Assembly (NCBI GenBank): GCA_951406725.2
Contig: OX597841.1
Coordinates: forward strand, 1,674,001-1,738,000
Length of the DNA stretch: 64,000 nt
DNA from: Octopus vulgaris
Taxonomy: Eukaryota
Direction of reading: 5' to 3'
A program made the position numbers and the translations under genes. Below, in pieces: positions 36,601-49,746 of the stretch. Positions within the stretch are counted from its first letter, which is position 1. Every line of letters starts with the position of its first letter. The notes under the pieces are model-generated. The model was not told where the DNA came from and searched no databases. It saw only the letters and a program-made list of their open reading frames with translations.

Positions 36601-39600
36601 CTAACAAATACAAACAAGAAATCATACCACCTAATAAATATGAAGAAGAAGAAGAAGAAGAAGAAGAAGAAGAAGAAGAAGAAGAAGAAGAAGAAGAAGA
36701 AGAAGAAGAAGAAGAAGAAGAAGAAGAAGAAGAAGAAGAAGAAGAAACAACAAAAGCTATAAAACTATTGAAATCCAAACTAAAACTAGAATAGCAAAGA
36801 ACCATGATAAAACGATGGCAAGAAAAGCCCCTTCATGGTAAATACTGGACTAAACTAAACGCAAAAGAAATAGACAAAGAAAAATCCCAGCAATGGTTGA
36901 AAAGCTCAGGACTCAAAGCAGAGACAGGGGGATTTTTAATTGCAGCACAAGACCAAAGCCTCCCCGCTAGAAATTACAAAAAACATGTAATGAAAAGAAA
37001 TATAACAAGTAACTGCAGAATATGTGGAGATGGACAAGAAACAATAAATCATATTATCTCTAGCTGCCCAGTCCTGGCTAAGAAGGAATATATTCACAGA
37101 CATGACAGAGTTGGAACCTACATACACTGGAAGCTATGCCAAAATTATGGAATAACAACAGAAAAAAGATGGTATAGGCACACACCAGAAAAGGTCACAG
37201 AAAACGAGAAAGTAACCATACTCTGGGATATGCCGATACACACAGATAGAGAAATTAAGACCAACAGACCAGATATAGTTGTCAGAGATCATGAAGGAAA
37301 GAAATGCTTTCTAATTGATGTATCAATACCGGCTGATGACAACGTGTCTCTAAAAGAAATGGAGAAACTCTCAAAATACAAAGACCTGGAAATAGAGGTA
37401 ACGAGAATTTGGAATCTAAAAACAGAAACAATCCCTATCATAGTAGGTGCATTAGGCATGATAAAAAAAATATTCAGACAAATACATAACAAAAACACCA
37501 GGACTTACAAACACATATAACATACAGAAAATTGCACTGCTAGGCACTGCACACATCCTACGCAGAACACTTTCCATACAATAACCATCAGAGCATCACA
37601 ACAAATCACAGCACATACCTAAGGCACACAAAGCTGCGCTCGGTAGTGAAGTGAAAGCACGCTATAAAATAAACTACTGAATAATAAAATAAAAACTACT
37701 AATAATAATAATAATAATAATAATAATAATAATAATAATAATAATAATAATAATAAGTCAAGCTTTTCTTTAGGTAAAACTAGTGATTTATAAAAACCAA
37801 ACAGCTGTAGCTACTATGGTGTTTGATGGACGAAATACAACCCTTGAAAGTTGGTTCTCTCCTGGAAAGTTGATAAGTTCTCCTTGGACCGACCTACCTT
37901 ACCACTCTCACAATTACTTCTCAATTAGAGGAGAGTAGTAAGTAATTTTTATCACTGTTTGTTTTTTGTTATCCTGCTGGGGTCTATAAATAAAGTACCT
38001 GTGAAGTACAGTGTCTATATAATCAACTACATACACTTCCCCTATATTCCTATCATTGCCATAAATATTAGTTTAATCGCAGAAATAATATCAATTAATT
38101 AATATTAATTATTGTTTACCTGCAAAGACTGGGGTTTAACTTCCTTGTATTATATTATAGTATCTCATCGAATTCCGTTTGTGAATTTACTATCAACAAA
38201 TAAGCACGCGCCCGTAGGCATATAAATATATACATACTTGTGTCTAGCCATGAAGGCACTTGGCTTAGTGGTCAGGATGTGAAGCTGGGGATTATAAGTT
38301 CGTGGTTTCAATTGCACGCTACTAATTCGTTGGGCAGTAATTTCACAGGAATCATGCAAGTGAATACTCAGTCATCTTCGAAAGAGACCGAGATCCATTT
38401 ACTTATAAATATGTATGACAACATTTGTATGATTTTCTTTCCTCTCCTGTTTCTGCTCATCAATACATTAATTAAAAGAAAATTAGTTAATGAGAGCACA
38501 GAATGGCATATGCACACTTATATTGACTGGTGACCATGATGAATTTGTCACCTGATCAGTGCATTGGGACAGTTTGGGTAATTCTTTGTGGACCTGGAAT
38601 TATAAAAGTGGTTAGTAACCTCTGTCTATCTACTAGTTTCATCTGCTAGAAATAAGTCACCAAATATCGCTGAAAATCACAGCCTACCCTCTTAAAAATA
38701 AACATAGTATATATTTGAATGTTTTTGACAATTGATCATTCTCGACTTGCGATGCCCACTTTGAAATATTTTTCAGTCTGAAGAGGGAGAAAAATCGTTG
38801 GATTTCGTTGTGGCCCTTTTCGAATTCTGGATAAGCGAAAGGGATCACGTTATTATCAGACAAAAAACTAGCCTAAATATTTACGACAGAATTGTCACAA
38901 TCAAAGTCCTCCCGCTTCAATGGTGAAGCTGCAGTGTTAAATTGACTGACAAATAAAGTCTACTACACATGTATGAAGACTGTCCTTCTAAATATTACAC
39001 AGATTACTTGTACGAAACTTTCACTTACAAAAATTTCGTTTACTGTAAAGGAGAACATATCATTTGTCTAATCAACGGGCGTTGTCGGTTCGAACTTGGA
39101 AACTTCACAATTACGTAGTCGTGAGACAAACTTTTCAATTGCAAAATCTGACAACGACAATAACAGCACATAGTACAACAGCACCATATTTTTGCTTTAC
39201 TCCTTTACAGTAACAGACGTCGTTTCTATGTTTCCTCTAACCATGGAGGTTGTGAGCATGACGCCGGTTGGATATGTGTTGATGAAAGTGGTGGCTGCCT
39301 TTGGGAGATTTTTCCACATTATCCTACGCTATTTTACTCAAACAAAAATTCGAAATCCACATGGTATTACGGTATGTATTTCGTCATCTGTCTTAACTTG
39401 TTTCTCCACCAGTTTAATGTAGTATTAAATATCTAGTTATAATGGCGTGGTAAACATGGGAAACAACTCGAGACATGTTTCGGTGTTATTATACCTTCAC
39501 AGTAAATATGTCTCACAGTACTTAAGAAAGAGAATCGTCATGTGGTAAAATATTACACATGTGTAGGTGTGGAAAATTTCGTACGAGGTGGTGCTGCAAA

Positions 39601-48600: not shown

Positions 48601-49746
48601 ACTTATATTGACTGGTGACCATGATGAATTTGTCACCTGATCAGTGCATTGGGACAGTTTGGGTAATTCTTTGTGGACCTGGAATTATAAAAGTGGTTAG
48701 TAACCTCTGTCTATCTACTAGTTTCATCTGCTAGAAATAAGTCACCAAATATCGCTGAAAATCACAGCCTACCCTCTTAAAAATAAACATAGTATATATT
48801 TGAATGTTTTTGACAATTGATCATTCTCGACTTGCGATGCCCACTTTGAAATATTCTTCAGTCTGAAGAGGGAGAAAAATCGTTGGATTTCGTTGTGGCC
48901 CTTTTCGAATTCTGGATAAGCGAAAGGGATGACGTTATTATCAGACAAAAAACTAGCCTAAATATTTACGACAGAATTGTCACAATCAAAGTCCTCCCGC
49001 CCCAATGGTGAAGCTGCAGTGTTAAATTGACTGACAAATAAAGTCTACTACACATGTATGAAGACTGTCCTTCTAAATATTACACAGATTACTTGTACGA
49101 AACTTTCACTTACAAAAATTTCGTTTACTGTAAAGGAGAACATATCATTTGTCTAATCAACGGGCGTTGTCGGTTCGAACTTGGAAACTTCACAATTACG
49201 TAGTCGTGAGACAAACTTTTCAATTGCAAAATCTGACAACGACAATAACAGCACATAGTACAACAGCACCATATTTTTGCTTTACTCCTTTACAGTAACA
49301 GACGTCGTTTCTATGTTTCCTCTAACCATGGAGGTTGTGAGTATGACTCCGGTTGGATATGTATTGTTCAAAGTGGTGGCTGCCTTTGGGAGATTTTTCC
49401 ACATTATCCTACGCTATTTTACTCAAACAGAACTTCGATATCCACATGGTATTACGGTAAGTATTTCGTCATCTGTCTTAACTTGCTTCTCAACAGGTGT
49501 TCAGCATAAACCCACATTTCAGATATCTCCGGCCACTGGACAATAGCGCCATTTTAATGAAGGGAAATATTACTTTGATTAAATATGGAAATCAAATTCC
49601 AAAAACGCATTTGCTATTACTGATATTCGTCTTGTTAATCTTGCTGTTAGTGTTGTTATTGTTGTTATTGTCGTTGTTACTTTTCTTATTTTGCAGGTTT
49701 TGAAACAGCTGATTCCATGGCCATCTTCATCCACTTGAAATCGTAA
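30678..49746 (+). CDS. Paralog D: exon 2 (30678-30856), exon 3 (37774-37937), exon 4a (39211-39371), exon 4b (49296-49456), exon 5 (49697-49746); no adjacent exon 1
   Basis: All exons are open, with canonical splice sites and family-conserved lengths and phases. Joining exon B at 12767 gives a 293-aa ORF with either exon 4a or 4b. Confidence 0.75.
32545..32925 (-). mobile_element. tRNA-derived SINE inserted in (AAT)n
   Basis: Minus-strand head GGCGCAATGGCCTAGTGGTTAGGGCAGCG...GGTTTCGATTCC (A and B boxes); a partial relative lies at 63290-63420. Confidence 0.8.
33272..33366 (+). mobile_element. 3' tail of a second R4-like family within (AAT)n
   Basis: Reverse-complement match to 56860-56955, the 3' UTR of the element at 56860-57685. 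Confidence 0.75.
33500..37700 (+). mobile_element. Near full-length R4/Dong-like non-LTR retrotransposon (RT, CCHC and restriction-like endonuclease), inactivated
   Basis: Single long reading frame broken by a few stops and frameshifts: NWKAPGHD, AWIDYKKAFD, GIFQGD, YMDD, CRICG...HIISSC, RHD, RPDIV...IDVS, KLSKY; flanked by (AAT)n. Confidence 0.92.
40535..46519 (+). mobile_element. Near full-length Tx1/L1-clade LINE (ORF1 about 40613-42620, frameshifted, with zinc knuckle; ORF2 about 42665-46101, APE + RT + CCHC)
   Basis: ORF1 CYLCGSETHLKKTC; ORF2 YVNARG, GDWN, LDRIL, TDH, YWKLN, KAFDRV, QGCPLS, YADD, CPRC...HALVQC; T-rich 3' UTR and AATAAA; embedded in (TATC)n. Confidence 0.93.
48068..48298 (+). 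mobile_element. tRNA-derived SINE
   Basis: Same family as 3895-4118. Confidence 0.78.
48310..48570 (-). mobile_element. 3' fragment of a related Tx1/L1-like ORF2, next to the duplication breakpoint
   Basis: KEAVWKTRIK...FFTFHLKRKVWLEKRCLSESVFNKRW aligns with the ORF2 end at 45860-46040. Confidence 0.8.

What the first reader, a model, noticed from the sequence alone, without database searches (positions are those of the whole stretch)
39211..49456. Exon 4a versus 4b: eight substitutions, all non-synonymous, beside a nearly identical intron
Seen by manual alignment: 8 differences in 161 nt, all amino-acid changing (H/Y, A/S, V/I, D/V, E/Q, K/R, N/T, K/I). They cluster around GGC..D.GW and YSN...S. 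The roughly 720 nt of duplicated upstream intron shows only about four differences. Established: exons evolving faster than introns is a hallmark of positive selection in venom and immune gene families. Inference: the family is in a molecular arms race.
Basis: partly seen in the sequence, partly recalled or inferred. Interest (0 to 1): 0.8.

Follow-up and report, generated by a model that had tools for sequence, protein, structure and literature searches.

The report
Fast-evolving exon in octopus gene cluster
Two copies of one exon in an undescribed octopus family of predicted secreted proteins differ only by amino-acid-changing letters, as do versions in other octopus samples, likely because selection favours protein variety while recombination keeps the flanking introns alike.

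Summary
Confirmed: 8 differences in 161 nt, all non-synonymous, against 4 in 725 nt of upstream intron. Outside data strengthen it. Contigs from 4 other octopus runs add 5 variable exon-4 sites, all non-synonymous (13 of 13, p about 0.02-0.03). At the 4a position, run X5 differs by 7/161 in the exon but 9/1273 and 3/366 in the two introns. The gene belongs to an octopod cluster (48 of 50 hits) of predicted secreted proteins: PAN/apple domain plus a weakly fibrinogen-like domain. Exon 4b is a 928-nt insertion into a LINE remnant; it equals exon 4 of an inverted, chimeric neighbour gene and resembles the version other runs carry at the 4a position. Exon 1 is shuffled among paralogs, so recombination is common. 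Site models favour selection (p 0.02, 0.0009) but fall to p 0.09 once synonymous rates vary. Verdict: likely diversifying selection plus intron homogenisation, a known pattern in an undescribed family. The arms-race partner is untested.

The parts
39211..39371 (+). Exon 4a of gene C (53 whole codons; last third of the C-terminal domain)
   Evidence: AG/GT ends, open frame; 51 of 53 residues equal to O. sinensis LOC118768485
49296..49456 (+). Exon 4b, a second exon-4 copy inside intron 4 of gene C; candidate mutually exclusive exon
   Evidence: including both 4a and 4b shifts the frame; no RNA evidence for 4b use
48567..49494 (+). 928-nt duplicated block (3' part of intron 3, exon 4b, 38 nt of intron 4); copy of 38482-39409
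   Evidence: 98.3% identity; junctions
38482..39409 (+). Source-position copy of the 928-nt block, holding exon 4a
48336..48566 (-). LINE ORF2 3' remnant, left flank of the inserted block
   Evidence: tblastn to residues 1052-1125 of the LINE ORF at 42661-46098, E 3e-15
49495..49553 (-). Preceding piece of the same LINE region, right flank of the inserted block
   Evidence: blastp match to the same LINE ORF; contigs in runs X2 and X6 join 48566 to 49498 (may be other LINE copies)
12767..13094 (+). Gene C exon 1 (predicted signal peptide and PAN/apple domain)
   Evidence: 100 of 109 residues equal to P0001, which joins this exon type to C-type exons 2-5; PAN fold Z 9.5
30678..30856 (+). Gene C exon 2
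37774..37937 (+). Gene C exon 3; differs from gene B exon 3 by 7N:1S
49697..49746 (+). Gene C exon 5 (single copy; no second exon 5 between 4a and 4b)
17181..25063 (-). Gene B: inverted, intact, chimeric 5-exon paralog inside intron 1 of gene C (exons 25063-24733, 21886-21708, 19069-18906, 17632-17472, 17230-17181); its exon 4 equals 4b
   Evidence: exon 1 groups with P0015, exons 2-5 with gene C
56088..63568 (+). Gene D: intact 5-exon paralog (56088-56418, 57769-57947, 60212-60375, 61496-61656, 63519-63568)
2..2443 (+). Gene A: exons 3-5 of a more distant paralog (2-165, 1447-1610, 2391-2443)
42661..46098 (+). Long LINE ORF2 (1146 codons without stop) inside the long intron 4, between 4a and 4b

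Best explanation
Exons 4a and 4b are two versions of one exon of an octopus multigene family that differ only by amino-acid-changing letters, likely because diversifying or balancing selection keeps surface-loop variants apart while recombination and gene conversion likely keep the flanking introns alike. Shown: gene structures, the counts, the 928-nt insertion into a LINE remnant, the occurrence of both exon-4 classes in other octopus runs, and incongruent trees for exon 1 and exons 2-5. Inferred history: a long-intron gene carried two exon-4 classes (VDE..KN and IVQ..RT); an IVQ-type stretch was copied into the LINE remnant of a VDE-type gene, giving 4a plus 4b; recombination between the 928-nt repeats gave the short-intron form seen in gene B and run X3. 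Inferred function (about 0.35-0.4): a secreted recognition protein, PAN/apple plus a remote fibrinogen-like domain, binding varied glycans or proteins, most plausibly of microbes or parasites.
For: 13 of 13 variable exon-4 sites over 6 versions (4a, 4b/B, X3, X5, X8, X15) are non-synonymous, p 0.016-0.031; 12 of 13 at codon positions 1-2, p 0.039. Same-position comparison with X5: exon 7/161, upstream intron 9/1273 (p 9e-4), downstream intron 3/366 (p 0.011); synonymous sites 0 of 40. X3 versus 4b: 3/161 exon, 0/675 intron, p 0.007. B versus C exon 3: 8/164 (7N:1S) against 5/1273 intron, p 2e-5; exons 3+4 pooled 20N:1S, p 0.016. Own codon site models: exons 3-5 (4 sequences) M7/M8 p 0.023, omega 2.7 on 28% of sites; mature exon 1 (3 sequences) p 0.0009. 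5 of the 7 intron differences between the 4a and 4b blocks have the 4b letter in X5 and X8 at the 4a position. Tree incongruence: AU p below 1e-59 both ways. Invariant Cys, Trp and Pro stay fixed across the family while neighbours vary. The same pattern is described for primate opsins (PMC3924837, passages).
Against: The 8 original sites were chosen after the fact; the 5 new sites alone give p 0.20-0.26. Adding exon 2 (2N:3S) to the pool gives p 0.18. With synonymous rate variation both site tests fall to p 0.09 (combined 0.046) and exon 2 shows nothing. Within the 4a/4b pair the best fit is a step at 39257, not an exon peak. Gene A comparisons give dN/dS 0.40-0.45. The 8 sites are not more variable across the family than other exon-4 sites (p 0.15). 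The other versions rest on single short-read contigs, two of them (X15) under depth 5. The fibrinogen-like match is weak (Z 5.8, rmsd 4.3; TLDc domains tie at 5.4). No tissue or ligand is known.
Confidence: 0.6

Rival explanations
1. Neutral mosaic: short conversion tracts from other paralogs or from a diverged haplotype land mostly in exons, the only parts similar enough among distant paralogs, and the lack of synonymous changes is chance.
For: Step inside the exon and 3 differences in 38 downstream nt; exon-3 states are reshuffled among B, C, D, A and P0001; exon 1 swaps among paralogs; S, V and Q of 4b also occur in O. vulgaris paralogs P0020 and P0047; site tests lose significance with rate variation.
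Against: No protein among the 48 octopod hits carries either full tract except P0001 for the 4a class; the tables shown for X3, X5 and X8 each give one exon-4 contig at 88-90% likeness; a neutral donor would bring synonymous changes, and 0 of 13 are.
Confidence: 0.25
2. The 4b block and gene B are assembly products: two haplotypes of one gene merged, so 4a and 4b are simply alleles and never lie in one gene.
For: B and the 4b region are 99.6% alike over 2.39 kb; intron divergence of 0.4-1% is allele-like; among the 32 pieces shown of 12,515, none bridges the left junction 48566/48567, and the X3, X5 and X8 contigs show one exon 4 each.
Against: The block interrupts a LINE with about 70 nt missing and 3-4 nt of microhomology, as a real insertion would; an X3 contig runs 26 nt past the right junction (under the tool's 31-letter bar) and an X1 contig starts at 48571, one base after the letter that separates the two upstream neighbours (weak); B has its own exon 1 and exon 3. 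The exon-versus-intron contrast would hold as an allelic pattern anyway.
Confidence: 0.1
3. Relaxed selection: one copy is a dying pseudo-exon that collects amino-acid changes.
For: No RNA was seen for the 4b class; 7 of the 8 differences have the 4a state in the O. sinensis relative.
Against: Relaxation cannot make an exon diverge 5-6 times faster than its own introns; no stop, frameshift, splice-site or invariant-residue loss in any version; the 4b class is the only exon 4 shown at this position in X5 and X8.
Confidence: 0.05

Closest known systems
Octopus sinensis LOC118768485 (XP_036370995.1) and its uncharacterised cluster in O. sinensis, O. vulgaris, O. bimaculoides and Argonauta
   Same: Same 293-aa layout; 100/109, 58/60, 49/55, 51/53 and 15/16 residues equal to gene C exons 1-5 with 4a; relatives cluster on one long contig per species.
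   Different: No second exon 4 in that record; its exon 3 is closer to gene B (53/55); the family is unnamed and six of its gene ids gave no paper.
Divergence peak under gene conversion: primate red/green opsin exon 5 (PMC3924837, passages read)
   Same: Exon differences stand out between near-identical introns; selection and conversion act together.
   Different: Here the selected function is unknown, the copies include an exon inside one gene, and versions keep changing among samples rather than being fixed.
Accelerated exon evolution in snake venom toxin families (PMC2474615, passages read; PMC6062510, listing only)
   Same: Multigene family of secreted Cys-rich proteins; similar introns, variable mature region, fixed cysteines; B and D share an identical 27-residue N-terminus beside a 66% identical PAN domain.
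   Different: No toxin domain, and no venom-gland evidence.
Molluscan fibrinogen-related proteins (FReDs/FREPs; PMC7588048, passages read)
   Same: Secreted, tandemly expanded, diversified; PAN/apple plus fibrinogen-domain layouts are reported in gastropods; best structural matches of the C-terminal domain are intelectin-1, Angptl3, fibrinogen and ficolins.
   Different: No Pfam Fibrinogen_C hit in 35 members, no IgSF domain, about 8-10% identity, Z under 6.
Dscam mutually exclusive exons (PMC3236188, abstract read) and RPP8 'permanent heterozygosity' (10.1101/694240, passages read)
   Same: Duplicated exon whose double inclusion breaks the frame; duplicates that may lock two alleles on one chromosome.
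   Different: Only two copies, very young, probably polymorphic, and splicing of 4b is not shown.

Membership tests
PAN/apple domain proteins | PAN fold in the N-terminal domain | tested here: met
   Model residues 27-111 match the HGF N domain, Z 9.5, rmsd 3.2, 82 aligned; the top 17 rows include HGF, plasminogen, kallikrein apple and microneme apple domains
PAN/apple domain proteins | Pfam PAN_1/PAN_3 above curated cut-off | tested here: inconclusive
   PAN_3 in 5 of 35 members, best E 0.005; PAN_1 in 2 of 35, best E 0.065; none for the 3 window exon-1 translations
Fibrinogen-related domain (FReD) proteins | Fibrinogen C-terminal fold | tested here: inconclusive
   Confident model (pLDDT 93); best Z 5.8 to intelectin-1 over 152 residues, tied with TLDc at 5.4; the top Foldseek rows are FReDs but E 0.04 or worse, TM about 0.4; ESM Atlas neighbours named 'Fibrinogen C-terminal domain-containing' at TM 0.85, below its naming bar
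Fibrinogen-related domain (FReD) proteins | Pfam Fibrinogen_C sequence match | tested here: not met
   0 of 35 members at E up to 0.5
FREPs | One or two IgSF domains before the fibrinogen domain | tested here: not met
   The N-terminal domain is PAN-fold
Lectin-like recognition proteins | Glycan or microbe binding | not testable with these tools
   Needs a binding assay
Genes under positive or balancing selection | dN above dS at a class of sites, robust to recombination | tested here: inconclusive
   13N:0S p about 0.02; M7/M8 p 0.023 and 0.0009; p 0.09 each with synonymous rate variation
Genes under positive or balancing selection | Non-synonymous divergence above flanking intron divergence at one locus | tested here: met
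   7/119 N sites versus 12/1639 intron sites, p 1.4e-4
Mutually exclusive exon pair | Two homologous, equal-length exons with intact splice sites whose joint inclusion breaks the frame | tested here: met
   161 nt each, AG/GT; 4a+4b shifts the frame
Mutually exclusive exon pair | Both isoforms transcribed from the same gene | tested here: inconclusive
   Only 4a-class contigs with exon-edge ends in one probable RNA run of another organism label (X15); no RNA of this individual
Venom toxin family | Venom-gland expression or toxicity | not testable with these tools
   Run tissues are not given

The most novel reading that the evidence does not exclude
A mutually exclusive exon pair caught at birth: two selected allele classes of exon 4 have been locked into one gene by a templated insertion, within an undescribed octopod recognition-protein cluster that builds diversity combinatorially by swapping PAN modules (exon 1) against fibrinogen-like modules (exons 2-5) - a cephalopod counterpart of snail FREP or Dscam-type diversification.
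Probability: 0.2. Interest if true: 0.72.

Novelty: new member of a known kind. Interest (0 to 1): 0.45.

Why it matters
The evolutionary pattern is well known, but this family of 48 or more octopod proteins has no name, no Pfam model for its main domain, and none of my searches found a paper on it. If selection is confirmed, it marks a candidate variable recognition system of octopuses (immunity, mucus, reproduction or venom) and points to the loops to test. The locus also preserves what look like three steps of one rearrangement (long intron, insertion, deletion), which makes the origin of a mutually exclusive exon from allelic variation directly testable.

Tried and rejected
No whole genome is held for this window, so the full cluster's DNA could not be used; dN/dS rests on 4 window genes plus variant letters from contigs. 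Pfam gave nothing useful for 7 single-exon translations (one chance Ets hit, E 0.17); the PDB sequence search gave 1 chance hit, E 1.2; Foldseek gave no match at E 0.001 for either model. No run holding the stretch is on record as RNA; X14 had no exon cover, and exon 4 had no cover in X1, X2 and X6: blanks, not evidence. The unlaid parts of the two X15 contigs were not shown and no exon 3-exon 4 joint was listed, so splicing is inferred from their edges only. From the X5 intron count I left out 3 sites (38298, 38317, 38415) and 7 exon-3 sites (37865-37901) that lie on lower-depth, gene-D-like or joint-bearing contigs. One search left 9 variant rows unshown. Trees used 20 and 17 near-full-length rows of 55; public gene models in tandem arrays may themselves join wrong first exons. 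No second exon 5 lies between 4a and 4b (score 22 versus 90 and 70 in controls), so 4a and 4b are not two whole tandem genes. The 8 sites are not special in family-wide variability (p 0.15). Paper searches listed no description of this family (listings and abstract starts only); one supplement search (PMC10138644) found none of 5 terms; bioRxiv supplements are closed and may bear on expression. Earlier scan findings: none. Organism labels are coded, so sharing of the exon classes across labels A-D is not claimed as trans-species polymorphism.
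Full report
Observation. The alignment of 38486-39371 with 48571-49456 gives 4 differences in 725 intron nt and 8 in the 161-nt exon. The exon excess over the upstream intron is real (p 2.6e-4), but 8N:0S alone has p 0.08-0.12.

What the locus is. The window holds four genes (my labels A-D) of one 5-exon family, all with GT/AG sites and open frames. The closest protein is Octopus sinensis LOC118768485. Of 50 hits, 48 are octopod (24 O. sinensis, 14 O. bimaculoides, 9 O. vulgaris, 1 Argonauta) and 2 amphioxus; 15 of 24, 10 of 14 and 9 of 9 lie on one long contig per species. 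A profile search found 1,309 relatives at E 0.001, and the Atlas places neighbours in molluscs and cnidarians. Exon 1 encodes a hydrophobic N-terminal helix (signal peptide by inspection; no predictor run) and a PAN/apple domain (Z 9.5). Exons 2-5 encode a domain without a Pfam family that folds confidently (pLDDT 93) and weakly resembles fibrinogen-like domains (Z 5.8 to intelectin-1, TLDc 5.4).

Anatomy of 4a and 4b. Both lie in gene C, which has a single exon 5; including both shifts the frame. The 928-nt block with 4b splits a LINE remnant whose halves are consecutive parts of one ORF2 region with about 70 nt missing; contigs in X2 and X6 join the two halves (they may be other LINE copies). 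Gene B, inverted inside intron 1 of C, has an exon 4 identical to 4b and the short intron that a deletion between the two 928-nt repeats would leave; its exon 1 belongs to another lineage, and its upstream DNA is 99% like that of gene D. That order of events is inference.

Other samples. I laid 8 of the 24 listed runs; 4 showed exon 4. X3 has an 836-nt contig of the short-intron type with 3 differences from 4b, all in the exon and all non-synonymous, and 0 in 675 intron nt. X5 and X8 each have a 655-nt contig with a 4b-like exon followed by the long intron that follows 4a in the window; X8 adds three further amino-acid changes. X15 (probably RNA, depth under 5) has two 4a-class contigs that start or end at the exon edges and match the O. 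sinensis protein. Over six versions 13 of 13 variable sites are non-synonymous (p 0.016-0.031; the 5 new ones alone p 0.20-0.26). Against X5 the exon differs at 7/161 and the two introns at 9/1273 and 3/366, so at one position the peak is exon-centred and a one-sided conversion tract does not explain it. Five of seven intron differences between the blocks have the 4b letter in X5 and X8, which suggests that 4b was copied from another haplotype of the same gene and that the two classes predate the insertion.

Family-wide tests. Counting dN/dS gives 0.82-1.03 among B, C and D and 0.40-0.45 against A; exon 2 is conserved (0.2-0.6). B and C differ by 7N:1S in exon 3 beside 5 differences in 1273 intron nt. 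My own codon site models (no codeml available; 3-4 sequences) favour a class above 1 in exons 3-5 (p 0.023) and mature exon 1 (p 0.0009); with rate variation on both dS and dN each falls to p 0.09, combined 0.046. Trees of the PAN part and of the C-terminal part disagree strongly (AU p below 1e-59 both ways), so exchange among paralogs is frequent and can both create and mimic such signals.

Mechanism. The best reading (0.6) is selection for varied surface residues, with recombination and conversion levelling the introns, as described for opsin exon 5 (PMC3924837, passages). A neutral mosaic from an unseen donor remains possible (0.25), as does a merged assembly for 4b and gene B (0.1). The most likely role is a secreted recognition protein, by analogy with PAN and fibrinogen-related proteins of molluscs (PMC7588048 and PMC13712769, passages); this is inference at about 0.35-0.4, and venom or reproductive roles are not excluded.

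Novelty. The pattern is known from opsins and venom families (PMC2474615, passages). The family seems undescribed in the library searched (the passages of PMC9068888 on cephalopod gene clusters do not mention it, with 0 occurrences of 'apple' or 'fibrinogen'). I rate it a new member of a known kind, interest 0.45; the bolder reading, a mutually exclusive exon pair born from two selected alleles in a domain-shuffling recognition cluster, has about 0.2.

Noticed in passing
window 24733-25209 (-) versus 55942-56578 (+): Genes B and D share the 5' region and first 36 codons almost letter for letter (1 difference in about 250 nt), then the PAN domain diverges to 66% protein identity: a conserved-signal, variable-mature pattern or a conversion tract.
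   Followed up: partly
window 12767-13094, 24733-25063, 56088-56418 and proteins P0001-P0032: Exon 1 is shuffled among paralogs: B's PAN is closest to P0015 (86%), D's to P0013 (76%), C's to P0001 and P0003 (93-94%), while exons 2-5 group differently.
   Followed up: yes
window 15971-28095 (-): Gene B is an inverted mosaic of gene D upstream DNA (99%), a different exon 1, and gene C exons 2-5 (98-99%), nested antisense in intron 1 of gene C; the arms 17434-22746 and 30039-39409 form a large inverted repeat.
   Followed up: partly
window 37774-37937 versus 18906-19069: Exon 3 of C and B differs by 7N:1S, mostly in its 5' half, with states shared in mosaic fashion with genes A, D and P0001.
   Followed up: yes
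window 39211-39371, 49296-49456: A second reading frame is open through the whole of exons 4a and 4b; including both exons reads 4b in it and gives a longer product (175 versus 124 residues from exon 3).
   Followed up: no
window 56088-56418: Gene D's PAN domain has Ser where most relatives have the first Cys (alignment); frame and splice sites are intact.
   Followed up: no
window 42661-46098 (+), 33686-37680 (+), 7118-9058 (+): Several LINE elements, one with a 1146-codon open ORF2 preceded by ORF1-like frames, lie in and between the genes; gene B keeps only the 3' end of the element in intron 2.
   Followed up: no
window 62117-62927: A tandem repeat of about 205-nt units in intron 4 of gene D, with a faint match to the same LINE region (E 1.6).
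   Followed up: no
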